DNA from: Deltaproteobacteria bacterium
GTDB taxonomy: Bacteria; Desulfobacterota; BSN033; UBA1163
NCBI GenBank assembly: GCA_037443425.1
Contig: JBBIOI010000002.1
Coordinates: 17,867 to 81,866 of the forward strand
Length of the DNA stretch: 64,000 bases
Reading direction: 5' to 3'
Below are positions 2,543-60,282 of the stretch, one piece after another. The notes under the pieces were generated by a model, which saw only the letters and a list, made by a program, of their open reading frames with translations, was not told the DNA's origin and did no database searches. Every line of letters starts with the position of its first letter. Position 1 is the first letter of the stretch. The translations under genes and the position numbers were made by a program.

Positions 2543-3087
2543 ACCATAAAGACCAGATAGGTAAACTAAACCAAATGAAGCAACCTTCTTCAAGACTGTG
2601 GTATGTCATCCAGACCAAGCCTGCAAACGAACATCGGGTGGAAAGGAATCTAATCAACCAGGGGATTGAAACCTTTCTTCCTCTTATTGAGGTACACCAT
2701 TATATTAATGGAAAGATTGTCACAAAGACTAAACCCCTCTTCCCCAACTACCTTTTTGGAAAGTTAGATATAGAGTTTCACTATTTTCAGGTGAAATATA
2801 CAAGGGGAGTGAACAAGGTCCTCGGGTTTGCAGATGGTCCTATACCCATCTCTGAAAAAGTGATTGAGATGATCAGAGAGAGGGTGGGGGAGGGAAATGT
2901 TGTAAGGTTAGAAGAAGAGTTTAAAGAAGGTGACCAGGTTCAAATCTGTTCAGGGGTTTTTAAAGATTTGATAGGAGTTTTTCAGAAAAAGATTTCTGAT
3001 CAGGGAAGGGTGCGAATTCTTCTAGGCATGCTCGGAGTTGAGGTTCCTGTACAAATTTCAAAATGGCAGTTAAAGAAGGTAGCTTGA
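2539..3087 (+). CDS. NusG-like (RfaH/UpxY-type) transcription antiterminator
   Basis: WYVIQTKPANEHRVERNLINQGIETFLPL (NusG N-terminal domain) and a KOW-like GDQVQICSGVFKDLIGVFQ. ATGA start/stop overlap with the upstream gene. The true start may be an internal Met. Confidence 0.75.
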   Translation: MNHKDQIGKLNQMKQPSSRLWYVIQTKPANEHRVERNLINQGIETFLPLIEVHHYINGKIVTKTKPLFPNYLFGKLDIEFHYFQVKYTRGVNKVLGFADGPIPISEKVIEMIRERVGEGNVVRLEEEFKEGDQVQICSGVFKDLIGVFQKKISDQGRVRILLGMLGVEVPVQISKWQLKKVA

Positions 3088-17945: not shown

Positions 17946-18408
17946 AGCCTACAAGATACGTGAGGCACGAGTCCAGTCCAGGCTATGCTTCTTTGAATAC
18001 GAAGACATAGCTCATGTTTATCGTGTACACGAACGTTATCGGGAGACTCTCCGATTGCTCAAGGCGGCTGGCTACCATCCCCTCTCTAATCTGTATATCC
18101 TTGACGTAGGCGCTGGCAATGGTAACATGTTGCGTCAGTTTCTGCAATGGGGTGCCGCGCCGGAACACCTGGCTGGTATTGAACTACGCCCTGAGCCGGT
18201 TCAAAAGGCTCTTCACCTCAGTCCTAACGTGGATATTCGCTGCGGCTCTGCCACTGAGCTTCCTTGGTCCGATGCTTCATTTGACTTGGTGTATCAGCAT
18301 ACTGTTTTCTCCTCTATATTGGATCCGTCTATGAAGCAGCAGATCACTGCTGAAATGAGAAGGGACTTGCGTCCGGGGGGCAGTGCTATGGTACGATTTC
18401 ATGTATGA
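17923..18408 (+). CDS. class I SAM-dependent methyltransferase, 5' portion (frameshifted at a G6 run)
   Basis: LDVGAGNGNMLRQF (SAM motif I) and FDLVYQHTVF. The ORF stops 10 codons after RPGG, and the expected continuation (VLWYDFMYDNPRNP...) lies in the next frame from the G6 run at 18375-18380. Confidence 0.7.
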   Translation: MEYQRILKAYKIREARVQSRLCFFEYEDIAHVYRVHERYRETLRLLKAAGYHPLSNLYILDVGAGNGNMLRQFLQWGAAPEHLAGIELRPEPVQKALHLSPNVDIRCGSATELPWSDASFDLVYQHTVFSSILDPSMKQQITAEMRRDLRPGGSAMVRFHV

Positions 18409-19864
18409 TAATCCTCGCAATCCTGACATGCATGGCGTAAGGGCTGGCAAAATCCGGGCATTCTTCTCGGGATTCGAAATATATTTACGTCGCATCACTC
18501 TGGCGCCTTTTATTGCTCGCCGCTTACCTGAATCTGTTTTCCCTGTCCTCTATCCCTTATTAGCAGTTATCCCACTACTTAGGACGCGCTATCTGGGACT
18601 ATTGGTGAAACCAAGCGCTGACTGCGGCTTCTTTCCGAGGCGGTGTGATCGTGTAAAAAAGGGACGTATTCGTAACAATTTTCTTTCATTCTCTCCACCC
18701 CTCATTGGCAGGGAAGAAATAGACGAAGTAGTTGACACCCTGCGCTCCGATTGGGTCACCACGGGTCCCAAAGTGAAACGTTTCGAGGAAGAATTCGCTG
18801 GCTTCATTGGTGCGCCGGCGGCTCTGGCCCTCAATTCTGGTACGGCTGCCTTGCACGTTGCTTTGGCTACTTTAGGGATTGGCTATGGTGATGCTGTCAT
18901 TACTACCCCCATGACCTTCTGCTCAAGTGTCCACGTCATCGAACATGTGGGTGCACGTTCCATCCTGGTTGATGTGGAACGGGATACGCTGAACATAAAT
19001 CCAGCCAAGATTTTGGATGTCATTAAATCTGAGATCCGAAATCCAAAATCTAAAATTAAGGCTATTCTGCCAGTTCACCTCTATGGACACCCCTGCGACA
19101 TGGACGCCCTCATCGAGATTGCTCGGGAATACGACCTGGCCATCATCGAAGATGCCGCCCATGCGCTCCCCGCCAAATATAAAGGCCAATTTATCGGTTC
19201 CTTTTCCACATCTTTCCCTTTTCCAGTTCTTACCTGCTTTTCCTTTTATGCTACTAAGAACTTGACTACTGCTGAAGGAGGAATGTTGACAGGTCCATCT
19301 GAACTTATAGAAGAAGCTCGAATTTGGAGTTTGCATGGTATGAGTCGTGACGCCTGGAAAAGGTACTCTGCTCATGGATCCTGGTACTACGAGGTTATAC
19401 GACCTGGTTTTAAGTATAACATGACTGATATTCAGGCGGCTCTTGGCATACACCAACTGCGAAAACTTCCTCAATTTCAGGCAAGACGTCGAGAAATTGT
19501 TAGACGTTATAATGAGGCATTTTCTAAAATCGAGGAACTTCAAATACCTTTAGAACGGAAAGGGGTAGAGCATGCCTGGCATCTTTATGTAATTCGTTTG
19601 AATTTGGAAATGATAAGTATTGATCGCGGGCAATTCATTGAGGAATTAAAAGCCCGAAATATAGGCACTAGCGTTCACTTCATTCCCATTCACCTGCACC
19701 CATATTATCGGGACAAATATGGATATAAGCCCGAAGACTTTCCTGTAGCCTATCACGAGTATCAAAGAATAGTTTCTCTGCCTTTATACCCACGAATGAG
19801 TGATAATGATGTCGATAATGTTATTGAAGCAGTATTAGACGTAATAAAAAAATACCGGAGATGA
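18383..19864 (+). CDS. DegT-family sugar aminotransferase ORF; its first ~75 codons are the displaced C-terminus of the upstream methyltransferase
   Basis: The aminotransferase domain starts near 18680 (PPLIGREEIDEVVDTLRSDWVTTGPKVKRFEEEFAGFIGA; FSFYATKNLTTAEGG with the PLP lysine). The only in-frame NTG codons just upstream of the domain are TTG 18602 and GTG 18605, so the true start is uncertain. Confidence 0.8.
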   Translation: MLWYDFMYDNPRNPDMHGVRAGKIRAFFSGFEIYLRRITLAPFIARRLPESVFPVLYPLLAVIPLLRTRYLGLLVKPSADCGFFPRRCDRVKKGRIRNNFLSFSPPLIGREEIDEVVDTLRSDWVTTGPKVKRFEEEFAGFIGAPAALALNSGTAALHVALATLGIGYGDAVITTPMTFCSSVHVIEHVGARSILVDVERDTLNINPAKILDVIKSEIRNPKSKIKAILPVHLYGHPCDMDALIEIAREYDLAIIEDAAHALPAKYKGQFIGSFSTSFPFPVLTCFSFYATKNLTTAEGGMLTGPSELIEEARIWSLHGMSRDAWKRYSAHGSWYYEVIRPGFKYNMTDIQAALGIHQLRKLPQFQARRREIVRRYNEAFSKIEELQIPLERKGVEHAWHLYVIRLNLEMISIDRGQFIEELKARNIGTSVHFIPIHLHPYYRDKYGYKPEDFPVAYHEYQRIVSLPLYPRMSDNDVDNVIEAVLDVIKKYRR

Positions 19865-27459: not shown

Positions 27460-27753
27460 TCAAACCCTGAAATGCTCTCCACTTGCCTTTCTTTTCCATC
27501 GAACCCTCTGAATAAGCGGAAGATTCAACTTAAGCGCACCTTTCCTTGGGCAATGCATAACACAAATCCCACAATACCAGCATTCATCAGGGAAGAGAAT
27601 AATAGGGGTTGATCCTTTTTGCGGATTTGGAATTAGAATATCCATGGGACATATATTAACACATATGTTACAGCCGTTACATCGTTTTTCATTAAAGATA
27701 AGAGGTCTGTTTGGTGTTATAGGATTCGGGATTGCATAGATTTTGGTTTTCAT
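27460..27753 (-). CDS. AprB-like 2x[4Fe-4S] ferredoxin subunit (short form)
   Basis: CNGCNICVNICPMDIL...FPDECWYCGICVMHCP. 4-nt overlap with the upstream flavoprotein gene. Confidence 0.7.
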   Translation of the reverse strand: MKTKIYAIPNPITPNRPLIFNEKRCNGCNICVNICPMDILIPNPQKGSTPIILFPDECWYCGICVMHCPRKGALKLNLPLIQRVRWKRKASGEHFRV

Positions 27754-29744
27754 TTCAACCCTTTCTTTTCCTTTATAGCTTGATTTTTTAAATATTCTTT
27801 ATTCCTTGATTCATAATTATCACTTAGAGAACCATAAAAATCGATTGGGAGATATGAAATTTTTACATCACCATCTACCTGTTTAAGGATAATAAACCTT
27901 TTCCATTCTGGTGGGTCCATCTCAGGAAAGTCATATCTATTAAAACCAAGAAATTTACTGCTTGCCTTTCTTGCAAGTGAACTATGTAGAATCATTTCAC
28001 AGCAAGTTAATATATCAATGACCTCGAGTGTTCGCATCAATCTATGGGGATCTGGTGCATAAAGTCGCGGCACCTCATTTTTAAAAATATCTTTAAACCA
28101 TAGAAGGCCAATCTTAAGAAGTTCCTCATTTTTTTGATCCCCACAATAGTTCTGCATAATCCTTGAACTTGCAGCATTCAGTTCCTTCCAATTGAGACCT
28201 TTTAAACGAGTATTTTTTGTAAGTGAATATATTCGAATCTTTTCTTCCTCCACCTGTTTTCTATCTATTTTTGCCTTTTTTATTTTATTAAGATTTTGAG
28301 AAGCCTTTCTTCCAGCATATCTCCCAGTTGCAGCAGCATGGTGATGATAATTTGAAGAAAAGAGTTGATCACCCGCAGCATAGAGACATTCAAGAGAGGT
28401 TTGGAGATTCCAATCTACCATTAGGCCCCCACATGGGCCGACTTCACCAAAAATCCTTTTATTGGGAGAAGCGGGGGTGCGAAGAGGATCTGAGCCTAAA
28501 AAAAGGTAGCTTTGAAGGAGGTCCTTATCAGGACAAAACCCAGCCCTTGTATAATTCTCATATATTGGGATTCTTGTTTTTCCCTCTTCACCCACCATCA
28601 ATCCCCAAATAACACGACGCTCATCATCGGGCATTCCTGGAAGGTCGGCGTATAATGGAAGAACAAACTCTCCCTTTCTTATTTTTTCTTCAAGATCAGG
28701 AATAAGTTGGGGTCTTTTGTATTCATAGGATTGAGACCTTTCCCCTAAAAATTTCTGACCCGAAGCTGGGATGCAACGTTCAAGAACCGTTTTCAGTATT
28801 TTTTCATTTCGATCAACCCATGGGATCTGCTTTCCATTTGCATCTACCATTGAACAGGGATACCATGTATTGAATGGATTTCCCTGACCATAAATTGGAA
28901 AGCCATTGCCACTTCCCATGATATGAGGGGTTGATTTTTCCATGAGTGTAAATTCAGCCCCTGCTCTGTATGCAATTGCATGACCATCACCCACATTTGT
29001 CTGTGGTCTTAATGTATCAAAACCAGTCAGTTCTGATTGGAATTGCCAGATCCTTTGTGGCCGAGAAAGGCAAAGTATCGTAGCCTTAGCATTGAATATA
29101 AAGAATTCACCCGTTCTAACATTGATTCCAGTGGCTCCAATAATCCTTTGCCCTTGCCTTCCTCTTTCATTTAATAATGAGGTGGCCATTATGCGGTCAA
29201 AAATCTTTACACCTAATCGTTTACATTCTTTGAACAACGAGGGTTTAAATGTTGTTCCCCATACTCTAAAATGAATCTTATTTTCATAATCATAAGCGAA
29301 GAGAAATTTTGTCTTTTCATCCCTAAATTTTGCCCCTTTGAATTCATCCTCAGTATCTCGAATCTTTCCCCCAATCTCCTCCAATTCAAGCAAGGTATCG
29401 AAGCTTTCCCTTGCTGATATATAGAAGGATATTGCATTGCAATAACCTCCTGAATCCAGTTGTTCAGCCTCTAAAATATCTTCAGCCGTAATTTTGGATA
29501 ATGGGTTTGGTGTTAGCACCCAATGGTCACAACCCGCCCCTCCAGCTCCGCTTCTTATGGTTGCTGCCTTCTCTACAATAGTAACATCTGCACCATTTCT
29601 CGAAGCACTAATAGCTGCCCAGCAGCCAGCAATACCGCCACCAAGGACAAGTATATCGGTTTCAATCAGGGTCTCTTTATCATAACGAATGGGATAAGGC
29701 CATTCAGGTAGGCCATAGCGCTTTATATATTCATTCCAGTCCAT
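27750..29744 (-). CDS. AprA / fumarate-reductase-like FAD flavoprotein (paralog 2, 664 aa)
   Basis: TDILVLGGGIAGCWAAISASRNG dinucleotide fold, a late LYAAGDQ motif, and a C-terminal capping region FNRYDFPEMDPPEWKRF. Confidence 0.75.
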   Translation of the reverse strand: MDWNEYIKRYGLPEWPYPIRYDKETLIETDILVLGGGIAGCWAAISASRNGADVTIVEKAATIRSGAGGAGCDHWVLTPNPLSKITAEDILEAEQLDSGGYCNAISFYISARESFDTLLELEEIGGKIRDTEDEFKGAKFRDEKTKFLFAYDYENKIHFRVWGTTFKPSLFKECKRLGVKIFDRIMATSLLNERGRQGQRIIGATGINVRTGEFFIFNAKATILCLSRPQRIWQFQSELTGFDTLRPQTNVGDGHAIAYRAGAEFTLMEKSTPHIMGSGNGFPIYGQGNPFNTWYPCSMVDANGKQIPWVDRNEKILKTVLERCIPASGQKFLGERSQSYEYKRPQLIPDLEEKIRKGEFVLPLYADLPGMPDDERRVIWGLMVGEEGKTRIPIYENYTRAGFCPDKDLLQSYLFLGSDPLRTPASPNKRIFGEVGPCGGLMVDWNLQTSLECLYAAGDQLFSSNYHHHAAATGRYAGRKASQNLNKIKKAKIDRKQVEEEKIRIYSLTKNTRLKGLNWKELNAASSRIMQNYCGDQKNEELLKIGLLWFKDIFKNEVPRLYAPDPHRLMRTLEVIDILTCCEMILHSSLARKASSKFLGFNRYDFPEMDPPEWKRFIILKQVDGDVKISYLPIDFYGSLSDNYESRNKEYLKNQAIKEKKGLK

Positions 29745-29780
29745 ATTTATCCTTCTTCATCAAATGGTGTTAATCTTTTG

Positions 29781-31559
29781 TTACTGAATAGGTATTTTAT
29801 TAAATTTCCAGTCACCAGTTTCATCTCTGCTTATAGCAAGAAATACATACCAATTATCATTGTCCTCCTCAGGATACTCTCTTCTATAAAAATCAAAGGC
29901 AGCTCTACTTTCTTTTCTCTCAATGGATGACCTCAATATCAATTCAGCATTATCAATAATCGATTTCACTTCAAGGCTTCTACTTAATTCGTGAGGATTT
30001 TCAGCCTTAAGCGGAGCTTGTTTTGCATCCTCAAGCCTTGTAAGTCCTCTTTTAAGGAGGCCCTCACCACGGATATCGCCACAATAAAAATCAATAAGAT
30101 TTTGAACATAGATTTCAACCTCTTTCCAGTAAAAGCCTTTTTTGCAATTCAAGATTTGACTGTATATCTCTCTTCTTTTCATTATCGTTTCTTTATCTAC
30201 TGAAAGAAATGCATTCTGTTCTTTAGCCCTTTTCTTTGCCATCTCACCTGCTCGCCAACCCATTGTCAGTGCACCAGGACCAGAGGCCCAGGGGACACCA
30301 CCTACCTCGTCTCCTGCCCCAAAAAGATTTCTAATATCTGTTTCCAAATCTTTATTTACCCATAATCCTTTAGCTGCTGTTCCTGCTAATTCACGGTTTG
30401 CCCAGCCTGCATATTCCTGAGGGTTCCTTCTTAAATCAAGTCTTTCCTCTTCTTCGAAATAACGCATAAACTGTGTACCCTTTCCTTCATTTCTTATTGA
30501 CCATCTTATATAATCAATTTCGTAATCAGTGGCTTCGGAGAAATCAAGAAAGAATGGCCCCTCTCCCTTAGAGACTCTTCTCGGTAACGAGGCACGACCA
30601 CCACGCCAGAGCTTTCTATCCTCCAGCCATTTTTTCCTTGTTTCAATGGGATCAAATCTTTCTTTACCAAGATTATCCCAATCATAAAAGTAGGTCCTCG
30701 GAACGATTATATTTCCAAAACCATCTATAATTCGAGCTGAAGGTTGAACCGTGTTTCTTGGATCACCATAATTTGGAGAATAGTATCCGCACACGGATAA
30801 TAGTCTTGAGCTTAGAAATTCGATATTAATTATTGGTAATCCAATTCTTATGGCCATAGATGTTCCATCACCTGTTAAAGTAGGTGGAAGCCTTGTATTG
30901 AAATCAACTCCCGAGGGATTTCTACTTAATCTATTAGACCTTCCTGAGGAGAGGATAACTGCCTTTGCTTTAAAAAAGTAGATATCTGCTGTGCGAGTGC
31001 CTATTCCTACAGCACCTGAAATCTGTCCATCAGTCTTTATTAGATCGGTCATCTGAACTCGATTAATAATATTAACCCCTCTTTTTTTTGCCTCATTTGT
31101 TAGTTTAAGCTTTAAAAATCTTCCGTCAAAATTAAAAGATGATGGTACACTATGGAATTGATATACGATTCTGAATTTGCCAGGGGCTTTGCTATCTTCA
31201 TATCTGAAATTTATACCAAATCTTTCAAGATCAAGAACCCTATCATATATCGATTCTGCAATTAGATAGAATAAGTCTTTTCTTAAAAAGCCAAAGGCCA
31301 CTGCCTGTTTATGATCCTCAAACATATCTTCGATACTGTAGCCCATCTTTTCATGAACCGGTGGTATATAGGCCCATAGGTGGTCTATACCCGATGAGGC
31401 ACATCCACTTGCAATAGTATTCGATTTTTCAACAAGCGTTACTTTTATATCCTGATCCTCAGATGCCTTTATTGCAGCCATTAGGCCTGCCAGTCCACCG
31501 CCAATTATCAAGACATCCGTTTCTAATGGAATTATTTGAGGTTCCATTTTAGCCTCCAC
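29781..31559 (-). CDS. AprA / fumarate-reductase-like FAD flavoprotein (paralog 1, 592 aa)
   Basis: TDVLIIGGGLAGLMAAIKAS dinucleotide fold, a late LFGAGDEVGG motif, and a C-terminal FYRREYPEEDNDNWYVF. Confidence 0.75.
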   Translation of the reverse strand: MEAKMEPQIIPLETDVLIIGGGLAGLMAAIKASEDQDIKVTLVEKSNTIASGCASSGIDHLWAYIPPVHEKMGYSIEDMFEDHKQAVAFGFLRKDLFYLIAESIYDRVLDLERFGINFRYEDSKAPGKFRIVYQFHSVPSSFNFDGRFLKLKLTNEAKKRGVNIINRVQMTDLIKTDGQISGAVGIGTRTADIYFFKAKAVILSSGRSNRLSRNPSGVDFNTRLPPTLTGDGTSMAIRIGLPIINIEFLSSRLLSVCGYYSPNYGDPRNTVQPSARIIDGFGNIIVPRTYFYDWDNLGKERFDPIETRKKWLEDRKLWRGGRASLPRRVSKGEGPFFLDFSEATDYEIDYIRWSIRNEGKGTQFMRYFEEEERLDLRRNPQEYAGWANRELAGTAAKGLWVNKDLETDIRNLFGAGDEVGGVPWASGPGALTMGWRAGEMAKKRAKEQNAFLSVDKETIMKRREIYSQILNCKKGFYWKEVEIYVQNLIDFYCGDIRGEGLLKRGLTRLEDAKQAPLKAENPHELSRSLEVKSIIDNAELILRSSIERKESRAAFDFYRREYPEEDNDNWYVFLAISRDETGDWKFNKIPIQ

Positions 31560-40122: not shown

Positions 40123-40980
40123 ATGAAAAGGATTGTTCCTGTTCAAGGGTTAACCATTTTTTTTATAATCGGTCTTCTAATCCTGACCATTGTTTCTCAT
40201 CCGAGGATACCCCTTTGGCAATCCTTAGTCCTTTTCTATCTGATGTTATTGACCTCCTTATTCGCCCTTAAATATTCTTTTGATAAAATTGGTGGAAGAT
40301 TAATCGAATTCTTATTTGACTTTTCACCAGTCATATTTGTTATTCTTATCTATGAATCGCTTGGAAGTCTAATACCATATATTCGATCCGATATCGATCC
40401 TTTACTAATCAAAATTGATTTTTTTATCTTTGGCAATCATCCAAGCCTATGGATGGAGCGTTTTACCACCCCCTGGTTTACAGATCTTATGTCACTTTCG
40501 TATTTGAGTTATTATTTTATTCCAGTCGTTTTAATTTCAGTCCTTTATCTAAAGGATAAGATAATAGAGTTTAATAATGCCATGTTTGTGCTTACATTTG
40601 GATACTATCTTTCATTTGTTGGATATATCCTCTTTCCAGCAATAGGTCCTCGTTTTACCCTTGAAAATCTATATTCAATCCCTCTGAAAGGAAGCTTTAT
40701 TACAGATTTCGTAAGAGATACATTAAATGCACTTGAGCATAATAAAAGGGATTGCATGCCGAGTGGACATACCCAGATTGTCCTCATGGTTTTATATCTT
40801 GCCTCGAGATATGAAAGACTCCTTTTCTATATATTTTTACCAATCATCTGCCTACTTATTCTATCTACTATTTATCTGAGATACCATTATGTAGTTGACC
40901 TATTTGCCGGAGTTATTTTTGCAATTACCTCCATCTTAGTATCAAACTACATATATAAAAAATGGCAAAAAGGGTTTTAA
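40123..40980 (+). CDS. PAP2_C-type membrane enzyme (inositol-phosphorylceramide / sphingomyelin-synthase-like)
   Basis: Six or more TM helices. CMPSGHTQIV (SGHT) and RYHYVVDLFAG (HYxxD) resemble the D3/D4 motifs of the sphingomyelin/IPC synthase family. Confidence 0.65.
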   Translation: MKRIVPVQGLTIFFIIGLLILTIVSHPRIPLWQSLVLFYLMLLTSLFALKYSFDKIGGRLIEFLFDFSPVIFVILIYESLGSLIPYIRSDIDPLLIKIDFFIFGNHPSLWMERFTTPWFTDLMSLSYLSYYFIPVVLISVLYLKDKIIEFNNAMFVLTFGYYLSFVGYILFPAIGPRFTLENLYSIPLKGSFITDFVRDTLNALEHNKRDCMPSGHTQIVLMVLYLASRYERLLFYIFLPIICLLILSTIYLRYHYVVDLFAGVIFAITSILVSNYIYKKWQKGF

Positions 40981-42086
40981 ATTTCACTCTCATATATTCT
41001 ATAAGTTTTATAGCGTCTCCCTCCCATTGCCTCAATTCCACGTTGCATAAGAATATTGTTCTCCAATATCCAGGAGCATTCTGCATGCTTATAGCCTTTT
41101 TCGATTCCCCTTTTAAAGGTTTCAATATAAAGTAATGCCTCAACCCCCCTCTTCTGAAAATCATTTCTTACCCCTAAGAGCATAACCCGAAGGGTCTTGA
41201 TCATTCTTGAGTAGTAAAGATATTTGAAAAACCCAGTGATCCCAATCCTACCATTAAGGTGTTTAAGTACTTCGTTATAATCTGGAAGTGAAACTGAAAA
41301 TCCAACAGGTTTATCTTCCATATATGCGAAAAGAACCAATTCTGGGACAGAGATTGGCTTAAGGTCTTTTGCCAGGTGGTCAATCTCCTCATCTGTCATC
41401 GGAACAAAACCCCAATTATTGGTCCAAGCGTCATTATATATGTCTTTTATGATATTTAATTCATTTTTAAAATCCTTAAGATTAAGACTACGTACCCATA
41501 GCCTTGGTTCTTTTCTTTTAATCTTTTCCTCAAATCGGAAGAGACGATCTGAAAGGAATGTCTCCCTATCCAGCCAATACGCATAGAGGTCCATTGCCTT
41601 TCTTAACCCAAATTCTTCAATCAATTGAGGGTAGTATGGAGGATTATAAGGCATCATTAAACAGGGATATAATTCAAAGCCATCGATTAGTAAACCACAT
41701 TCATCATTAGTTGAAGGATTCATTGGTCCTGCCATTCTTTGCATTCCATGATCTTTAAGCCATTCTTTGACGTTTGTCAGTAGTACCTTAGAGACTTCAG
41801 AATCATATATGGATTCAAAAAATCCGAAGAAACCAAGCCTTTCATTATGGAAACGAATATAATGATGATCGATAATACCTGCAATCCTACCTACAACCTC
41901 GCCTCCTCTTTGTGCTAAAAGTAATATCAAATCAGAATGGGATAAAAATGGGTTTTGAGGGCTAAATTTTTTAAGCTGGTCTTTAATTAATGGTGGTACC
42001 CATCGGTCACAATCTTTGTATATCTTCCATGGTAGTTTAATAAAATCTAATAGTTCCTTTTTATCTTTTACCTCTTTTATAATCAC
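40977..42086 (-). CDS. GNAT-fold acyltransferase, candidate bacterial ceramide synthase
   Basis: 369 aa, with WVPPLIKDQ..., GRIAGIIDH...GFFGFFES, and a C-terminal GVRNDFQKRGVEALLY acyl-CoA-binding-like block. The functional call rests on synteny with the Spt and SDR genes. Confidence 0.5.
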   Translation of the reverse strand: MIIKEVKDKKELLDFIKLPWKIYKDCDRWVPPLIKDQLKKFSPQNPFLSHSDLILLLAQRGGEVVGRIAGIIDHHYIRFHNERLGFFGFFESIYDSEVSKVLLTNVKEWLKDHGMQRMAGPMNPSTNDECGLLIDGFELYPCLMMPYNPPYYPQLIEEFGLRKAMDLYAYWLDRETFLSDRLFRFEEKIKRKEPRLWVRSLNLKDFKNELNIIKDIYNDAWTNNWGFVPMTDEEIDHLAKDLKPISVPELVLFAYMEDKPVGFSVSLPDYNEVLKHLNGRIGITGFFKYLYYSRMIKTLRVMLLGVRNDFQKRGVEALLYIETFKRGIEKGYKHAECSWILENNILMQRGIEAMGGRRYKTYRIYESEI

Positions 42087-42113
42087 GTTGCCTCTATCTA
42101 CCCATCCTTTCCT

Positions 42114-43295
42114 TCAGATCAATCCCAACTGTTTTCCTACCTTCTCAAATGCTGAAAGCACATGATCCAGTTGCTCCTCTGTATGGGTGGCCATATAACT
42201 TGTTCTTAATAGTTCTCTTCCAGGGGGAACAGCAGGGCTAACAACAGCATTTACAAAGACTCCATTTTCAAAAAGAAGCTTACACATCTGATACACTTTC
42301 ATATTGTCTTTAATAATTATAGGAATAATAGGAGTTTCACTTACCCCTGTATCGAAGCCAAGGCTCTTATAACCTTTTAGCATCTTATGTGTATTTTTCC
42401 ATAGCTGAATTCTCAATTCAGGTTGTTCCTCGATTATGTCAAGGGCTGTACTTACAGAGGCTACCAAGGCAGGAGGAAGACTTGCACTAAAGATCATAGA
42501 ACGGCCCATATGCTTGATAAAATTTATTACCTCCTTTGAGCCTGCAACAAATCCTCCAATAGCTGCAAGGGATTTACTATATGTTCCCATTATAAGGTCA
42601 ACCTTATCTTCAAGCCCGAAGTGCTCTGCAGTTCCTCTTCCTCCATCTCCAAGGACACCAATTGCATGGGCATCGTCTACCATAATCCTTGCCTCATAGG
42701 CCTCGGCCAGTTTTACAATAGAGGGAAGGTCAGCTATATCTCCTTCCATACTAAATATGCCATCTACAATGATTAACTTACCTTTTCCTTTTAAACCTTC
42801 AAGAACCCTTTCAAGATCTTTCATATCATTATGTTTAAACTTTTTGACCTGACCGAAGGAGAGGCGACATCCATCGATAATACTTGCATGATCATACTTA
42901 TCAATAATGGCTACATCATTTCTGCCAATCAGCGCAGAGATGGTCCCGAGATTTGTTTGATAACCTGTTGCAAAGACAAGGGCAGCTTCTTTTCGGAAAA
43001 ATTTTGCAAGTTTAGCCTCTAACTCTTCATGGATCTCAAGGTTCCCATTAAGAAACCTTGAGCCAGCACAACCACTTCCATATCTCTCGATTGCCTTTAT
43101 AGCTGCCTCTTTTACCCTTGGATGATTGGTTAAACCAAGATAATTGTTTGAACCAATCATAATTACCCTTTTACCATTAACCATAACTTCAGAGTCCTGT
43201 GGTGATTCAAGTCTCCTAAAGAAGAAATAATGACCGCTGTCTCTTAATTCCTGTGTTTGTTCATATATTTTTGAACATTTTTCAAATACGTCCAT
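42114..43295 (-). CDS. alpha-oxoamine synthase family enzyme, serine palmitoyltransferase-like
   Basis: GSNNYLGL, GSRFLNGN, DDAHAIG, and GTYSKSLAAIGGF (PLP lysine). The C-terminal VNAVVSPAVPPGRELLRTSYMATHT parallels Sphingomonas Spt as I recall it. Confidence 0.75.
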   Translation of the reverse strand: MDVFEKCSKIYEQTQELRDSGHYFFFRRLESPQDSEVMVNGKRVIMIGSNNYLGLTNHPRVKEAAIKAIERYGSGCAGSRFLNGNLEIHEELEAKLAKFFRKEAALVFATGYQTNLGTISALIGRNDVAIIDKYDHASIIDGCRLSFGQVKKFKHNDMKDLERVLEGLKGKGKLIIVDGIFSMEGDIADLPSIVKLAEAYEARIMVDDAHAIGVLGDGGRGTAEHFGLEDKVDLIMGTYSKSLAAIGGFVAGSKEVINFIKHMGRSMIFSASLPPALVASVSTALDIIEEQPELRIQLWKNTHKMLKGYKSLGFDTGVSETPIIPIIIKDNMKVYQMCKLLFENGVFVNAVVSPAVPPGRELLRTSYMATHTEEQLDHVLSAFEKVGKQLGLI

Positions 43296-55900: not shown

Positions 55901-56665
55901 TCAAAGATTTACCCGTAACCCCTTTTCCTTTAAATATTCCTTAACCTGTTTAATGCTGAGGATGCGATAATGAAAGACTGAAGCAGCAAGTAGAATTTGA
56001 GCCCCGCCTTTCACAACCGCCTCGTAGAAATGCTCAAGTTTTCCTGCTCCACCTGAGGCAACCACAGGTATACTCACTACTTCTGAAATTGCTTTTATAA
56101 ATTCGAGATCGTAACCCGCTTGAGTTCCATCTCCATCTATACTCGTAGGAAGAATGATTCCTGCACCCATATCCTCACACTGTTTAGCCCAGCTAACAGC
56201 ATCTTTTCCAACAGGCATTGTACCACCTGCGACGACCAGTTCAAAACCAGATGGCATTGACCTATTTCTTCGTGCGTCAATAGCAATAGTTATTCGGTCT
56301 TTGCCAAATTTTTTGGAGGCCTGTCTTATTAAGTCAGGATTTTTAACTGCAGCACTATTCATAGAAATTCTATCTGCACCAGCATTCAGAACTAACTCAA
56401 TATCTTCAAGTGTAGATATACCACCACCAACGGTCAGTGGTATGTTAATAACTGAAGAAACATTTTTAACCCATTCAAGTCTGGTCTTACGGTTTTCTAC
56501 TGTAGCAGAGATGTCAAGCATTGCAAGTTCATCAGCGCCTTCCTTTTCATAAAATTTAGCATTTTCAATAGGGTCGCCCGCATCTTTGATATTCACAAAA
56601 TGGATGCCCTTTACCACTCGACCATCTTTCATATCCAAACATGGCATAATTTTTATAGTAATCAT
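55901..56665 (-). CDS. hisF: imidazole glycerol phosphate synthase cyclase subunit HisF
   Basis: IMPCLDMKDGRVVKG, GADRISMNSAAV and VASGGAG blocks. No other his genes are adjacent. Confidence 0.9.
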   Translation of the reverse strand: MITIKIMPCLDMKDGRVVKGIHFVNIKDAGDPIENAKFYEKEGADELAMLDISATVENRKTRLEWVKNVSSVINIPLTVGGGISTLEDIELVLNAGADRISMNSAAVKNPDLIRQASKKFGKDRITIAIDARRNRSMPSGFELVVAGGTMPVGKDAVSWAKQCEDMGAGIILPTSIDGDGTQAGYDLEFIKAISEVVSIPVVASGGAGKLEHFYEAVVKGGAQILLAASVFHYRILSIKQVKEYLKEKGLRVNL

Positions 56666-56831
56666 TGAGGATTTCCTTTCAAAAAAATTAAATTAATTAT
56701 ATTTCCTAAGTTAATCAAAGTCAATGCTACTGGCAGAAACTATCCAAACATATATAATTTCCTTATATATTATTTTAAAAACTTTAAAAACTTATCTTGA
56801 ATAAAATTTTTCACTGTATAATAATTTTATT

Positions 56832-57149
56832 ATGAGTAAAGTAATTCAAGTTAAGGTAGTTTCTTTAGAGAATTGTAAAGCAACACCCCTTACCATTTCA
56901 TTATTAAAAGAGATTGCCAAGGAGATGGGATTGGATATTGAATTAATACACACGATTGTTAAGACACCTGAAGAGGCTAAAGAGCATCACCATATTGGAA
57001 GTCCAACTGTCCAAATTAATGGCTTGGATATAGAGCCTGAGGCAAGAAACATCGAGCAATTTGGTATTACTTGAAGAAGTTATGGGACATCGTCGATGCC
57101 CTCAAGAGAACTTATCAAGGCATCATTTTACGAAGCATTGAAAAAATGA
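56832..57149 (+). CDS. small thioredoxin-fold-like protein, candidate selenoprotein (in-frame TGA at 57072-57074)
   Basis: The conventional ORF is 56832-57074 (80 aa). The same frame stays open for 24 more codons to TGA 57147-57149. HIGSPTVQINGLDIEP...FGIT[TGA]RSYG fits a family in which I recall a Cys at the TGA position. A stem-loop starts 9 nt after the TGA. Confidence 0.5.
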
Positions 57150-57375
57150 TTTTAATAATACAGAGAAGTGTAAGACCTCTGAAAAAGTATTTAGAATGGA
57201 TTAATAGATAGGAGAAGAAAAGCTTTATTGTGGACGACATCCTAAGTTAATTCAGCAGGGGTTTTTTCTAAAGCGATTTTTAGAAATTTAAACATTAAAA
57301 GCCCGCATTCGAAGGGTTTTGAACCCTACCTCCCCGGTCTTTCAAAGACTTTTTCGGAAGTCTCTAGTACAAATA

Positions 57376-57421: not shown

Positions 57422-57919
57422 ATGTTTGAAAGGAACATCGAGATCGATAAAAGATTTATGAGAGAGGCATTAAAAGAGGCAGAGATAGCTGAAAAGGATG
57501 GTGAGGTCCCGATAGGTGCTGTTATAGTAAGAGACGGAGAGATTATTACAAAAGCACACAACCGTTGTATAGAACTTAATGATCCAACTGCACATGCTGA
57601 GATATTGGTAATAAGAGAGGCGGGAAGAATTTTGAAAAATTATAGATTAGGAAATACTGTTATATATGTAACTGCTGAGCCTTGTGCAATGTGTGTTTCA
57701 GCAATGGTAAATGGAAGGATTTCAAGGCTGGTTTTCGGGGCACTGGAGCCGAAGACAGGTGCTGTGGAGTCAAGATTGAGATTGCTTGATGGTAATAATT
57801 TTAACCACAAAATAGAGGTTGAAAAAGGAGTACTTGAAGAGGAGTGTTTGGAAATCTTAAGGTCTTTTTTCAGAAGGAGGAGGATGGAGAGAAGGGGAGA
57901 GGTTGCCGAGCTGGTTTAA
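57422..57919 (+). CDS. tadA: tRNA adenosine(34) deaminase TadA
   Basis: Zinc motifs TAHAEILVIREAG and TAEPCAMCVSAM. The last 8 codons are read from a truncated tRNA-Ser copy. Confidence 0.85.
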   Translation: MFERNIEIDKRFMREALKEAEIAEKDGEVPIGAVIVRDGEIITKAHNRCIELNDPTAHAEILVIREAGRILKNYRLGNTVIYVTAEPCAMCVSAMVNGRISRLVFGALEPKTGAVESRLRLLDGNNFNHKIEVEKGVLEEECLEILRSFFRRRRMERRGEVAELV

Positions 57920-58082: not shown

Positions 58083-58172
58083 GGAGAGGTTGCCGAGCTG
58101 GTTTAAGGCGCCGCTCTCGAAAAGCGGTTCTCCCCAAAGGAGACGTGGGTTCGAATCCCACCCTCTCCGCCA
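58083..58172 (+). tRNA. tRNA-Ser (anticodon CGA)
   Basis: Hand-folded cloverleaf: acceptor GGAGAGG/CCTCTCC, anticodon stem CCGCT/AGCGG with loop CTCGAAA, long variable arm, T-arm GTGGG-TTCGAAT-CCCAC, and encoded CCA. Confidence 0.9.
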
Positions 58173-58222
58173 ATTATAAGAAGAGTATAGTAACGAGCGA
58201 TATTAGCTGAGCGGTTATAAAT

Positions 58223-58317
58223 GGAGAGATGCCCGAGTTGGCCGAAGGGGCACGACTGGAAATCGTGTGTTCCGACTAAAATCGGAACCGAGGGTTCGAA
58301 TCCCTCTCTCTCCGCCA
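58223..58317 (+). tRNA. tRNA-Ser (anticodon GGA)
   Basis: Acceptor GGAGAGA/TCTCTCC, anticodon stem CACGA/TCGTG with loop CTGGAAA, long variable arm GTTCCGA/TCGGAAC, T-arm GAGGG-TTCGAAT-CCCTC, and encoded CCA. Confidence 0.9.
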
Positions 58318-58352
58318 TAATCTGATGGATTTATATAGAGCTTGAAAAGGTC

Positions 58353-58464
58353 TTGTTGATAGTCGGGTCCTGCGCAACAAAGAATTACAAACCCCGCCAG
58401 GTCCGGAAGGAAGCAACGGTAGTAATCTCCTTTGTGTGCCGCAGGGGAGCCTGACTATCAACAA
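58353..58464 (+). ncRNA. ffs: signal recognition particle RNA (small 4.5S type)
   Basis: Terminal helix TTGTTGATAGTC/GACTATCAACAA and the conserved domain IV motif CCAGGTCCGGAAGGAAGCAAC. A T-run follows. The position upstream of dnaX is classic. Confidence 0.85.
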
Positions 58465-58509: not shown

Positions 58510-60282
58510 ATGTCATATTTGGTTTTAGCAAGGAAATGGAGACCACAGGTCTTTGAGGATGTTGTTGGACAGAGACATATCACAAAAACACTCCAAAATG
58601 CAATCTCTCAAAACCGTGTCTCACATGCATTTCTTTTTACAGGTTCAAGAGGGGTTGGAAAGACCTCTACTGCACGGATACTTGCAAAGGCACTGAATTG
58701 TGAGCGAGGGCCAGATATTAATCCATGTAATCAATGTAAAACATGTGAAGAGATTACACATGGTACATCGCTGGATGTTATCGAAATCGATGGCGCCTCC
58801 AATCGTGGCATAGATGAGATTAGGGAATTAAGAGAAAATGCCCGCTACACGCCTGCAAAGAGTCGCTACAAGATTTACATAATTGATGAAGTTCATATGT
58901 TGACAAGGGAGGCCTTCAATGCACTGCTTAAGACCCTGGAAGAACCACCTCCTCATATAATCTTCATATTTGCCACTACAGAGCCTCATAAAATTCCTGA
59001 AACCATACTTTCTCGCTGCCAAAGATATGACTTTAGAAGGATCCCATTGAGGTTGATTATCGAAAGCCTTAAACGTATTGTTGATGAGGAAAAGATCAAT
59101 ATAAGTGAGAGAGGAATTTTCTTTATTGCTCAAGAATCTGATGGAAGCTTGAGGGATGCACAGAGTATTCTTGATCAGGTTATTTCATATAGCGGAAAAG
59201 AGATAAAGGATGAGGATATTGCTGATATCCTTGGTCTAATTGATAGGCAAATTATCTATGACACAATAGAGGCAGTAATAGAAAGAGACGCAGCAAGATG
59301 TCTTAGGATTGTAGATCATGTTTATCAATATGGAATCGATCTTCAGCATTTTTGTAGAGAACTTCTCAAATATATTAGAAACTTGATTATTATGAAGGTG
59401 AGTAAAAATCCTGAAGCCCTTCTGGAGTTAACAGAAGATGAATTTGAAATTTTAAAGAACCAGGCAGAAAATCTGGATATTGAGCAACTTAATCATCTTT
59501 TTAGTATACTTTTAAAAGGAGAGGAAGAGATAGCTCAATCAACATTTCCAAGGGTTATGCTTGAGATGACATTGATAAGGATGGCAAATATCAAACAGAT
59601 TGTTCAAATAGATGAGATCATAAAGAAGTTAGAGAAGATGGAAAAGATAGGTTTTAAAGCTAACATCTCCGATTATGATGCTTCTCTGAGTAAGACTCTT
59701 TTAGTCCCTGAAAATATTGAGATGGAGATTAGCACCAATAAATTAGCTGACTCGGAAAGAGTAAAGGGTGATGAATTTAGGGAGGAGAAATCTTTATATC
59801 TTAATGAAAATCCTGAAATTAGTTCTTCTGAAATAGAAGAAGGATTTAAATCTCCTGTTGAGGAGGAATCTCTGCCTCAAGAGAATTATCAAGATCTCTG
59901 GAAAGGTCTGGTTGAATACACAAAAACAAAAAATCCAATCCTTGGTTCTTTTCTTGCCCTGGGTTCTCTTATAAAGATTAATGATGAAAAGGTTGAACTT
60001 GGCTTTGAAAAGGATTCGTTCCATTACGATAGGATTTTGGAAAGGGAGAATAAGAAACAACTTGAATCTATTTGTAAAGAGTTTTTTAAAAAGGATTTAA
60101 AGCTCGTCATTACCCCTTTTGAAGCGAAAGAAAAAATAAACAATCGTTTTGAGGCAAAGGCTAAGATGAGTAACCATTTTAACCTTGAAACCCAAAAAGA
60201 GGAAAAGATAGAAAACCCTTTAATAAAAGAGATCATTAGTACCTTTAATGGGAAGATAATCCAGAATAGAACAGGAGAATAA
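58510..60282 (+). CDS. dnaX: DNA polymerase III subunit gamma/tau
   Basis: VVGQRHITKTLQNAI..., Walker A GSRGVGKTSTARILAKALNCE, Zn module CNQCKTCEEI, and IIDEVHML. Confidence 0.9.
   Translation: MSYLVLARKWRPQVFEDVVGQRHITKTLQNAISQNRVSHAFLFTGSRGVGKTSTARILAKALNCERGPDINPCNQCKTCEEITHGTSLDVIEIDGASNRGIDEIRELRENARYTPAKSRYKIYIIDEVHMLTREAFNALLKTLEEPPPHIIFIFATTEPHKIPETILSRCQRYDFRRIPLRLIIESLKRIVDEEKINISERGIFFIAQESDGSLRDAQSILDQVISYSGKEIKDEDIADILGLIDRQIIYDTIEAVIERDAARCLRIVDHVYQYGIDLQHFCRELLKYIRNLIIMKVSKNPEALLELTEDEFEILKNQAENLDIEQLNHLFSILLKGEEEIAQSTFPRVMLEMTLIRMANIKQIVQIDEIIKKLEKMEKIGFKANISDYDASLSKTLLVPENIEMEISTNKLADSERVKGDEFREEKSLYLNENPEISSSEIEEGFKSPVEEESLPQENYQDLWKGLVEYTKTKNPILGSFLALGSLIKINDEKVELGFEKDSFHYDRILERENKKQLESICKEFFKKDLKLVITPFEAKEKINNRFEAKAKMSNHFNLETQKEEKIENPLIKEIISTFNGKIIQNRTGE

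What the first reader, a model, noticed from the sequence alone, without database searches (positions are those of the whole stretch)
56832..57149. Candidate selenoprotein: thioredoxin-like small ORF with an in-frame TGA followed by a SECIS-like hairpin
The 80-codon ORF ends FGIT-TGA, yet the same frame stays open for 24 further codons (RSYGTSSMPSRELIKASFYEALKK) to a second TGA at 57147-57149. The combined 105-aa product fits a small-protein family that I recall as ...GCPxx...(F/I)GSPT(I/V)x(V/I)(N/D)GxD(I/V)EP...(F/L)Gxx-C-RxY...G.P....I..AL. Here the TGA falls exactly where that family has its second Cys, and C15 (ENCKATP) would be the redox partner. Nine nt after the TGA the RNA can fold as GGG-A-CAU [CGUCG] AUG-CCC, extendable by AAGUU/AACUU. 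The apical loop contains GU and sits about 19 nt from the UGA, within the range I recall for bacterial SECIS elements. There is no Shine-Dalgarno before the ATG, and a TATAAT box ends 9 nt upstream, so the mRNA may be nearly leaderless.
Basis: partly seen in the sequence, partly recalled or inferred. Interest (0 to 1): 0.65.

Follow-up and report, generated by a model that had tools for sequence, protein, structure and literature searches.

The report
Selenocysteine gene of known DF family
The small gene at 56832-57149 is almost certainly a real selenoprotein gene, its in-frame TGA read as selenocysteine with the help of a conserved RNA hairpin, but it belongs to a family ("hypothetical protein DF", NCBIfam NF049942) that was already described as a selenoprotein in 2025, so it is a correct catch rather than a discovery.

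Summary
An 80-codon ORF ends FGIT-TGA (57072-57074), and the frame stays open for 24 more codons to TGA 57147-57149.

- **Family:** with U read as C, the 105-aa product scores 96.5 bits (cutoff 70) over the whole NCBIfam model NF049942, "DF family (seleno)protein".
- **Recoding:** in 68 related loci the codon at this position is always TGA. Three Cys-type loci have TGC. The downstream peptide (RRYGASSMPSKELIKAAF.EAL) is conserved with coding-type codon-position variation.
- **Hairpin:** GGGACAUC-GUC-GAUGCCCU (57084-57102) starts 9 nt after the TGA. It is 93% paired across 55 distinct Sec-type sequences, shows compensatory changes, is absent from the Cys forms, and meets the published bacterial SECIS criteria.
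- **Strains:** the TGA, hairpin and extension are identical in strain variants from three metagenome runs.

Two things stay open. selA, selB, selD and tRNA-Sec are not in the window, and the rest of the genome could not be reached.

The family was published in 2025 (deep-Sep) and its function is unknown. I add that Sec forms are widespread, that the fold is thioredoxin-like, and that Cys forms sit in merR-DF-merT arrays.

The parts
56832..57149 (+). Full coding sequence of a DF-family selenoprotein: 105 aa including Sec81, plus the terminal stop. Public gene calls truncate it to 80 aa (P0001).
   Evidence: Searches give the sequence. NF049942 scores 96.5 bits against a cutoff of 70, matching residues 7-97 to model positions 1-95 of 96; 68 TGA-containing loci and 3 TGC-containing loci share the same architecture.
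56874..56876 (+). Codon of Cys15 (ENCKATP). This is the invariant N-terminal Cys, at the position where thioredoxins carry CxxC. It is the presumed partner of Sec81.
   Evidence: The column is invariant in alignments A1, A3 and A5. In the AF2 model of Cys homologue P0129 it lies in the loop between strand 1 and helix 1, two residues before helix 1 starts. That it pairs with Sec81 is inference.
56997..57008 (+). GSPT motif (G56-S57-P58-T59), the conserved Pro loop before strand 3 of the thioredoxin-like fold.
   Evidence: G56 and P58 are invariant; S57 and T59 are at least 90% conserved. The assignment as the cis-Pro loop comes from general knowledge of the Trx fold together with the model.
57072..57074 (+). 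In-frame TGA, read as selenocysteine (U81).
   Evidence: It aligns with Cys (TGC) in L008-L010 and in more than 100 Cys-form proteins. The codon is TGA in 68 of 68 Sec-lineage loci and never TAA or TAG. It is unchanged in strain variants from three runs.
57075..57146 (+). The 24 codons translated after Sec81 (RSYGTSSMPSRELIKASFYEALKK). They form the loop and the C-terminal helix of the fold.
   Evidence: The peptide is conserved in all 68 loci, and R82 and Y84 are invariant. Codon-position diversity downstream of the hairpin is 0.41/0.25/0.65, against 0.35/0.23/0.65 in the upstream ORF. pN/pS is 0.40 against 0.34.
57084..57102 (+). Bacterial SECIS-type hairpin. The 5' arm is 57084-57091 (GGGACAUC), the loop is 57092-57094 (GUC), and the 3' arm is 57095-57102 (GAUGCCCU). 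A57087 is bulged or mismatched.
   Evidence: 93.4% of cells are paired in 55 distinct sequences, against 38-53% in the slid controls. Pair 17-27 changes CG to UA seven times. Third-position diversity falls to 0.28 in the hairpin codons. Folding energy is -7.6 kcal/mol here and -10 to -14 in relatives, but only -1.5 to -3.7 at the same place in Cys forms. It meets the bSECIS constraints quoted in PMC13188914.
57147..57149 (+). True stop codon (TGA).
   Evidence: In relatives the extension ends 22-39 codons after the Sec codon, apart from one 75-codon read-through (L023), at TAA, TAG or TGA.
56817..56822 (+). TATAAT hexamer 9 nt upstream of the ATG. It is a possible -10 box only. No SD lies between it and the ATG.
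   Evidence: Sequence. The scan found only a 9-of-12 TTGAAT-17-AATAAT match at 56797-56825, and 6 promoter-like sites against 4.0 +/- 2.1 in shuffles. It is unverified.

Best explanation
The gene at 56832-57149 encodes a 105-residue selenoprotein with a thioredoxin-like fold, a member of the DF family (NCBIfam NF049942). The host is an uncultured Thermodesulfobacteriota-like bacterium from subsurface sediment.

How the recoding would work:
- During translation the ribosome reaches UGA81.
- The hairpin that starts 9 nt downstream (57084-57102, loop GUC) is bound by SelB carrying GTP and Sec-tRNA(Sec).
- Selenocysteine is inserted instead of termination, and translation runs on for 24 codons to the real stop.

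What the protein would do: Sec81 (FGIT-U-RSY) lies in the loop after strand 4. Together with the invariant Cys15, which sits just before helix 1 where thioredoxins carry CxxC, it would form a Cys/Sec selenenylsulfide centre. That centre could act in redox chemistry or bind a soft metal.

Shown here:
- family membership;
- the Cys/Sec correspondence;
- exclusive use of TGA at this position;
- coding conservation of the extension;
- a conserved, covarying hairpin that fits the bSECIS rules;
- TGA used as an ordinary stop elsewhere in the window.

Inferred:
- the SelB mechanism, from established knowledge of bacterial Sec insertion;
- the presence of selABCD elsewhere in the genome;
- the Cys15-Sec81 pairing;
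- the biochemical role.
For: - **Family.**: NF049942 scores 96.5 bits (cutoff 70) over its full length.
- **Cys homologues.**: called homologues stop at FGIT, but the Cys forms continue as C-RRY..G.PS.ELIR.A. The Cys column is invariant.
- **Codon at the position.**: TGA in 68 loci, TGC in 3, with a conserved extension.
- **Coding signature.**: the extension has coding-type codon-position diversity and pN/pS of 0.40. Synonymous variation is suppressed only in the hairpin codons (0.28 against 0.65).
- **Hairpin.**: it is conserved (93% paired), has compensatory changes, and is absent in Cys forms.
- **SECIS rules.** (PMC13188914) gives the constraints. The loop must be 3-9 nt (here 3). The upper stem must be at least 4 bp (here CAUC/GAUG). 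G must lead the loop, followed by U (here GUC). The spacing must be 16-37 nt (here 17). MFE must be at most -7.5 kcal/mol (here -7.6).
- **Genetic code.**: 14 of 47 long ORFs end in TGA, so the code is standard.
- **Strains.**: the TGA, hairpin and extension are identical in strain variants from two studies.
- **Lineage.**: the closest named ProRS relatives are Thermodesulfobacteriota. (review): that phylum is named among the anaerobic groups most enriched in selenoprotein genes.
- **Fold.**: the AF2 model of Cys homologue P0129 has pLDDT 91.6, and its top PDB matches are thioredoxins and SelW-related proteins (TM 0.5-0.56).
- **Literature.**: the family is published as a predicted selenoprotein.
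Against: - selA, selB, selD and tRNA-Sec are not in the 64-kb window, and no second selenoprotein gene is there either. Sec competence of this genome is therefore inferred, not shown.
- The window's hairpin is the weakest of the set because of A57087, and it only just passes the -7.5 kcal/mol rule.
- No experimental evidence exists for any member of the family.
- Foldseek E-values are weak (about 0.01). Pfam Thioredoxin_3 is below cutoff (22.1 against 24.8 bits), and there is no CxxC.
Confidence: 0.88

Rival explanations
1. The TGA is an ordinary stop. The product is the 80-aa protein, as public gene calls have it, and the open frame and hairpin downstream are untranslated, for example a chance ORF or a terminator-like structure.
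For: All database gene calls end at FGIT. On single-sequence statistics, neither the open frame nor the hairpin is significant. No Sec machinery is seen in the window.
Against: The extension is conserved as protein in 68 loci, with third-position-biased variation and pN/pS of 0.40. The stop is always TGA. Cys homologues read through the same position into the same peptide. An 80-aa product would lack the C-terminal helix of the fold. No T-run terminator is present.
Confidence: 0.03
2. The UGA is read through, but as an amino acid other than Sec. One route is Cys delivered by a tRNA(Sec)-like tRNA(Cys). Another is near-cognate Trp or Cys insertion when selenium is scarce. Either way a 105-aa non-seleno protein is made, possibly alongside the truncated form.
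For: Sequence analysis cannot tell which residue is inserted. From my own recollection, not checked here, tRNA(Sec)-like tRNAs that insert Cys at UGA have been reported in some anaerobic bacteria (Mukai et al.). The Sec machinery was not found in the window.
Against: The hairpin fits the SelB-type bSECIS model. The family has been catalogued as Sec-using in a proven Sec-utilising organism. The lineage is among those richest in selenoproteins. TGA is a normal stop elsewhere in the window.
Confidence: 0.05
3. This is a pseudogene. A Cys codon (TGC/TGT) recently mutated to TGA in this lineage, or the organism has lost Sec decoding and the gene is decaying.
For: TGC or TGT to TGA is a single-base change. 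Sec machinery is not demonstrated for this genome.
Against: TGA is shared by 68 diverged loci that are only 41-69% identical at the protein level. The extension and hairpin are intact in the window and invariant among strain variants, while the flanks vary. Within-ORF strain differences are 4 synonymous and 3 conservative, judged from the positions.
Confidence: 0.02

Closest known systems
"Hypothetical protein DF" / DF family (seleno)protein (NCBIfam NF049942). It was first reported in Desulfosediminicola flagellatus IMCC35005 by deep-Sep (Xiao & Zhang 2025, PMC12013277) and is listed in the 2026 review PMC13188914.
   Same: The full-length HMM match is above cutoff. The Sec/Cys position and flanking motif (FG[IL][TM]-U/C-R.Y) are the same. 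A SECIS-like hairpin lies immediately downstream. Cys homologues are abundant.
   Different: The paper reported no TGA-containing homologues in other Sec-utilising bacteria and no conserved domain. Here, 68 TGA-containing loci were found and a thioredoxin-like fold is predicted. The window copy has no signal peptide, whereas many Sec forms carry a lipoprotein-type signal.
Small thioredoxin-fold redox proteins: Pfam Thioredoxin_3 PF13192, MJ0307/MtH895-type thioredoxins, and the thioredoxin-like selenoproteins Sec.1/Sec.2 in the review's list.
   Same: The size is similar (about 80-105 aa). The predicted b-a-b-a-b-b-a topology is shared. A Cys sits just before helix 1, and there is a conserved Pro loop (GSPT). 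Top structural matches are thioredoxins.
   Different: There is no CxxC or UxxC; the N-terminal motif is C-K-A-T here and C-P-N-H in Cys forms. The second redox residue, Sec or Cys, is 66 residues downstream in the loop after strand 4. Pfam scores are below the gathering cutoff.
SelW / Rdx-family (SelW-related) proteins.
   Same: These are also small thioredoxin-like-fold (seleno)proteins, and they appear among the Foldseek hits (2ojl, 2p0g, 2fa8; TM 0.48-0.53).
   Different: In Rdx proteins the Sec or Cys is in an N-terminal CxxU/CxxC motif. No sequence similarity to them was detected.
Accessory proteins of mer (mercury-resistance) operons, such as MerP and the NmerA-type Hg(II) hand-off domains.
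   Same: Cys forms of the DF family sit between a merR-family gene and merT or merC in 7 of 7 Cys-form loci that showed mer genes. Six are on Acidobacteriota-type records, and L100 (a Logan contig) is unassigned. In one locus (L008) the DF domain is fused in frame to a MerT-like domain. Both kinds of protein have two conserved thiols.
   Different: The fold is different: MerP and NmerA are HMA ferredoxin-like domains with GMxCxxC. No merA was seen nearby. The window's Sec form and most other Sec forms have no mer neighbours. Metal binding is untested.

Membership tests
DF family (seleno)protein, NCBIfam NF049942 | The whole-protein HMM score reaches the curated cutoff (70 bits) over the full model. 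| tested here: met
   96.5 bits, E = 6.9e-28, residues 7-97 matched to model positions 1-95 of 96 (U entered as C).
DF family (seleno)protein, NCBIfam NF049942 | A Sec (TGA) or Cys at the conserved position in FG[IL][TMS]-[U/C]-R-x-Y, plus an invariant N-terminal Cys. | tested here: met
   the C15 and C/U81 columns are invariant; the codon is TGA in 68 loci and TGC in 3.
Bacterial selenoprotein gene (SelB/SECIS-dependent UGA recoding) | An in-frame UGA aligned with Cys in homologues, with coding conservation downstream. | tested here: met
Bacterial selenoprotein gene (SelB/SECIS-dependent UGA recoding) | A bSECIS hairpin with a 3-9 nt apical loop, an upper stem of 4-16 bp, G in the first two loop positions, 16-37 nt between UGA and loop, and MFE of -7.5 kcal/mol or lower (constraints as quoted in PMC13188914). 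| tested here: met
   The loop is GUC, the upper stem is CAUC/GAUG plus GGG/CCC, the spacing is 17 nt, and the MFE is -7.6 kcal/mol (borderline). bSECISearch itself was not available.
Bacterial selenoprotein gene (SelB/SECIS-dependent UGA recoding) | The genome encodes selA, selB, selC (tRNA-Sec) and selD. | not testable with these tools
   None were found in the 64-kb window. The rest of the genome could not be fetched. The lineage (Thermodesulfobacteriota) is typically Sec-utilising.
Bacterial selenoprotein gene (SelB/SECIS-dependent UGA recoding) | Selenium is actually incorporated into the protein. | not testable with these tools
   This needs 75Se labelling or mass spectrometry. No member of the family has been tested.
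Thioredoxin_3 (Pfam PF13192) / classical thioredoxin | The HMM score is above the gathering cutoff and a CxxC active site is present. | tested here: not met
   22.1 bits against a cutoff of 24.8. The motif is C-K-A-T, with a single Cys. Only the fold resemblance holds.
DUF2703 (PF10865) and Sp-DndD (PF20306) | The HMM score is above the gathering cutoff. | tested here: not met
   DUF2703 scores 15.6 against 23.6 bits, and Sp-DndD 22.4 against 27.2 bits. Both matches are partial.
mer-operon component | The gene is adjacent to merR, merT, merC or merA. | tested here: not met
   The window neighbours are hisF (55901-56665, minus strand) and tadA (57422-57919). No MerR, MerT or MerC homologue is in the window. 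The feature is met only for Cys forms and one Sec form, L089.

The most novel reading that the evidence does not exclude
The DF family may be a soft-metal (Hg(II)-type) handling module rather than a general thiol oxidoreductase. Cys forms are fixed components of merR-DF-merT/merC arrays and are once fused to MerT. The Sec forms of Thermodesulfobacteriota would then be Cys/Sec chelators with much higher affinity for mercury or other thiophilic metals. Many of them are lipoproteins; the window copy is cytoplasmic and stands alone. If so, this would be a selenoprotein dedicated to metal detoxification or trafficking in sulfate-reducer-type anaerobes.
Probability: 0.2. Interest if true: 0.6.

Novelty: new member of a known kind. 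Interest (0 to 1): 0.3.

Why it matters
For annotation, the gene is mis-called as an 80-aa hypothetical protein in public data, as are nearly all of its Sec-type relatives. The correct product is a 105-aa selenoprotein.

For the field, the gain is incremental. The DF family was published in 2025 from a single genome, with the statement that no other TGA-containing homologues exist and that it has no recognisable domain. The data here add four points:
- The Sec form is common in sediment and subsurface Thermodesulfobacteriota.
- It carries a strongly conserved SECIS that leaves a footprint on synonymous sites.
- It has a thioredoxin-like fold with a split Cys...Sec centre.
- Its Cys relatives are embedded in mer-like operons, which gives a testable lead to a function that is so far unknown.

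Tried and rejected
- **Pfam.** Only sub-threshold hits to Thioredoxin_3, Sp-DndD and DUF2703, so I did not file the gene under any of them.
- **Rfam.** Nothing relevant at gathering or E-value thresholds around the gene. This copy appears to hold no general bacterial SECIS model.
- **Lower stem.** I rejected it as part of the element.
- **Sec machinery and other selenoproteins in the window.** I scanned 40 of the 47 long (>=150 aa) ORFs against NCBIfam and saw no SelA, SelB or SelD. The second half was filtered at E<=1e-40. The ORFs beyond 55.6 kb and the 1414-aa ORF were identified by eye only. There is no tRNA-Sec. A scan for TGA-interrupted frames gave only chance cases, plus one pair of adjacent genes in the same frame at 42116.
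- **Conserved neighbourhood of the Sec forms.** None bears on function. MORN-repeat proteins flank one clade (14 of 150 neighbour ORFs), and there are no mer genes except in L089.
- **RNA-seq.** Only DNA metagenome runs hold the sequence, so the promoter and leaderless claims could not be tested.
- **Repeated element at 57260-57365.** No matches in the loci, viral contigs or plasmids.

Full report
**Observation.**
The sequence is exactly as described. The ATG is at 56832. Eighty codons follow, ending ...NIEQFGIT. TGA is at 57072-57074. Twenty-four more open codons follow (RSYGTSSMPSRELIKASFYEALKK), ending at TGA 57147-57149. Nine nucleotides after the first TGA lies GGGACAUC-GUC-GAUGCCCU (57084-57102).

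On its own this is not beyond chance. At 39% GC a 24-codon open stretch has a probability of about 0.2 (my arithmetic). Eighteen TGA sites in the window pass comparable open-frame criteria. The hairpin is weak, at -7.6 kcal/mol with z = -1.7 for the core and z = -0.6 for 45 nt. The case rests on comparison with relatives.

**Family.**
Pfam gives only sub-threshold hits: Thioredoxin_3 at 22.1 against 24.8 bits, plus Sp-DndD and DUF2703. NCBIfam is clear. With U entered as C, the 105-aa product matches NF049942, "DF family (seleno)protein", at 96.5 bits (cutoff 70). The match covers residues 7-97 and model positions 1-95 of 96, so it runs across the TGA.

A first protein search found 71 relatives. 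Nearly all were called as ending ...QFGIT. Two Cys-containing ones continue as ...FSLT-C-RMYGSSGVPSRELIASAL and ...FGLM-C-RRYAGGVPSRELIRAAV. A profile search then found more than 3,000 relatives. The best-scoring are 100-115-aa Cys forms, and the few that carry names are from Acidobacteriota.

The invariant columns are C15, A49, G56, P58, G64, D66, P69 and the Cys/Sec column. I67, E70, R82 and Y84 are also invariant in the 11-sequence alignment A3.

**The TGA is recoded.**
I fetched DNA for 9 genome loci and 80 metagenome loci. Of these, 68 have TGA at the position, never TAA or TAG. Three have TGC: two Acidobacteriota and one Kiritimatiellales. In every TGA locus the frame continues for 22-39 codons, apart from one 75-codon read-through. 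The continuation has a conserved peptide (consensus RRYGASSMPSKELIKAAF.EAL) and ends at TAA, TAG or TGA.

Codon-position diversity in the extension downstream of the hairpin is 0.41/0.25/0.65. That is the same as in the 60 codons upstream of the TGA (0.35/0.23/0.65). pN/pS for the window against the others is 0.40, compared with 0.34 upstream. The extension is therefore translated and under purifying selection.

TGA is an ordinary stop for 14 of 47 long ORFs in the window. The genetic code is therefore standard, and a site-specific mechanism is needed.

**SECIS.**
All 55 distinct Sec-type sequences fold the same hairpin at the same distance. On an ungapped alignment the 8-bp helix is 93.4% paired, against 38-53% when the partner is slid by 1-3 columns. 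Pair 17-27 changes CG to UA in seven sequences, with matching amino-acid changes (A/T to V, and M to I/T). Third-position diversity drops to 0.28 in the hairpin codons, which is an RNA-structure footprint on synonymous sites. At the same place the Cys forms have no hairpin, folding at -1.5 to -3.7 kcal/mol against -7.6 to -14.2.

The element meets the bSECIS constraints quoted in PMC13188914:

| Constraint | Required | Window |
|---|---|---|
| Apical loop | 3-9 nt | 3 nt (GUC) |
| Loop start | G in first two positions | G first, then U |
| Upper stem | at least 4 bp | CAUC/GAUG |
| UGA-to-loop spacing | 16-37 nt | 17 nt |
| MFE | -7.5 kcal/mol or lower | -7.6 kcal/mol |

The window's copy is the weakest of the set because A57087 faces C. 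Seven of the 55 sequences lack a standard pair at that position.

**Independent assemblies.**
Logan contigs of three runs from two studies (subsurface and sediment metagenomes) cover the gene. Two strain variants differ at 12-13 of 601 positions. Neither has any change between 57024 and 57215, which spans the TGA, the hairpin and the whole extension. The seven differences inside the ORF are four synonymous and three conservative changes, including H53R towards the family consensus.

**Host and machinery.**
ProRS from the window is 76-79% identical to proteins named from Thermodesulfobacteriota and Syntrophaceae MAGs. The window has 38.8% GC. The review names that phylum among the anaerobic groups most enriched in selenoprotein genes.

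The window itself holds no tRNA-Sec; it has only two tRNA-Ser genes and an SRP RNA. No SelA, SelB or SelD turned up among the 40 long ORFs scanned, and there is no second selenoprotein gene.

**Protein and likely function.**
An AF2 model of the Cys homologue P0129 is confident (pLDDT 91.6, pTM 0.83). P0129 is 42% identical to the window protein and has the same architecture. Its order of elements is strand, helix, strand, helix, strand, strand, loop, C-terminal helix.

The N-terminal Cys sits two residues before helix 1. The Cys that corresponds to Sec81 sits in the loop after strand 4. The best PDB matches are thioredoxins, SelW-related (Rdx) proteins and KaiB, at TM 0.5-0.56 and weak E-values of about 0.01. 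There is no CxxC.

The most economical reading is a thioredoxin-like protein with a split Cys15...Sec81 centre.

**Context.**
The window gene lies between hisF (minus strand) and tadA. Neighbourhoods of other Sec forms are not conserved. They include DsbD and rhodanese in one locus, and MORN-repeat proteins in one clade (14 of 150 neighbour ORFs).

The Cys forms are different. In 7 of 7 Cys-form loci that showed mer genes, the DF gene lies directly after a merR-family gene and directly before merT, merT-HMA or merC. In L008 the DF domain is fused in frame to a MerT-like domain. Six of these loci are on Acidobacteriota-type records; the seventh, L100, is an unassigned Logan contig. The Kiritimatiellales Cys form (L010) showed no MerR, MerT or MerC hit.

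One Sec form (L089) also has merR upstream. This suggests an ancestral role in handling Hg(II)-type thiophilic metals. For the window's stand-alone Sec form it is only a lead.

About half of the Sec forms carry an N-terminal lipoprotein-type signal peptide. The window copy cannot have one, because an in-frame stop lies 10 codons upstream of the ATG.

**Literature and novelty.**
The family is "hypothetical protein DF" of the deep-Sep paper (Xiao & Zhang 2025, PMC12013277). It was predicted in Desulfosediminicola flagellatus IMCC35005 with Cys homologues and a bSECIS-like structure. The paper states that no TGA-containing homologues occur in other Sec-utilising bacteria and that there is no conserved domain. 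The family is listed with NF049942 in the 2026 review PMC13188914. No experimental work on it was found.

The finding is therefore a new, mis-annotated member of a known predicted selenoprotein family. The increments here are these:
- The Sec form is widespread.
- The SECIS is quantified.
- The fold is thioredoxin-like.
- Some Sec forms are lipoproteins.
- The Cys forms are linked to mer-like operons.

The TATAAT at 56817-56822 and the missing SD are real. However, promoter-like matches are no commoner than in shuffled sequence (6 against 4.0 +/- 2.1), and no RNA data exist. The "nearly leaderless" idea therefore stays a guess.

**Verdict.**
The gene is a genuine selenoprotein gene of the DF family with probability of about 0.9. 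Novelty is low, because the family is already catalogued, so interest is modest at 0.3.

Noticed in passing
window 57260-57365 (intergenic, between the DF gene and tadA): In two metagenomes this 60-100-nt stretch has contig word depth up to about 14,600 (X1) and 9,200 (X3), against about 18-24 for its flanks. More than 200 contigs break at its edges with unrelated flanking sequence, so it is an element repeated hundreds of times in these communities. The window holds only one copy. It has no Rfam, tRNA, viral or plasmid match. The minus strand contains a T-arm-like GGGUUCAAAACCC. It remains unexplained.
   Followed up: partly
L096-L101, L008, L009 (Cys-form DF loci, mostly Acidobacteriota-type records): Cys forms of the family sit in merR - (small ORF) - DF - merT/merC arrays in 7 of 7 Cys-form loci that showed mer genes; the Kiritimatiellales locus L010 showed none. 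In L100 the MerT is fused to an HMA domain, and in L008 the DF domain is fused in frame to a MerT-like domain. No merA was seen within about 4 kb.
   Followed up: partly
L011-L053 and others (Sec-form loci); window 56802-56831 for comparison: About half of the Sec forms have an N-terminal signal peptide with a lipobox-type Cys (for example ...GIIAAC, ...LILGC, ...PMLAC), which predicts exported lipoprotein selenoproteins. The window copy lacks one, because an in-frame stop lies 10 codons upstream of the ATG.
   Followed up: partly
L018, L024, L027 and about 11 other Sec-form loci: MORN-repeat proteins are the commonest neighbours of Sec-form DF genes (14 of 150 neighbour ORFs), probably within one marine-sediment clade. 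Their significance is unknown.
   Followed up: no
window 58083-58459: Two tRNA-Ser genes (anticodons CGA and GGA) are followed directly by the small SRP RNA (80.8 bits), and then by dnaX (58510-60282).
   Followed up: no
window 1-22526: A long polysaccharide or O-antigen-type biosynthesis cluster. It has an RfaH/UpxY-like antiterminator (2539-3087), several GT4 glycosyltransferases, two PseC-like aminotransferases, a PseB-like dehydratase, a MurJ-like flippase and a priming phosphotransferase.
   Followed up: no
window 17923-19864: A short (161-aa) methyltransferase-domain ORF overlaps the start of an aminotransferase ORF. The aminotransferase match begins only at residue 98 of that ORF. This may be a mis-started or fused gene pair.
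   Followed up: no
window 40977-43295 (minus strand): A BioF/Kbl/serine-palmitoyltransferase-like gene (42114-43295) ends in TGA and is followed in the same frame by the next ORF (40977-42086). It looks like ordinary adjacent genes, not a selenoprotein. No homology check of the junction was done.
   Followed up: partly
window 27750-31559 (minus strand): Two tandem paralogous flavoprotein genes (664 and 592 aa) resemble the alpha subunits of fumarate reductase, succinate dehydrogenase and APS reductase, well below the equivalog cutoffs.
   Followed up: no
window 56989 (codon 53 of the DF gene): Strain variants in runs X2 and X3 carry A>G here (His53 to Arg). This restores the family consensus (E-H-R-H-IGSPT), so the window's HHH is a strain-specific variant.
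   Followed up: yes
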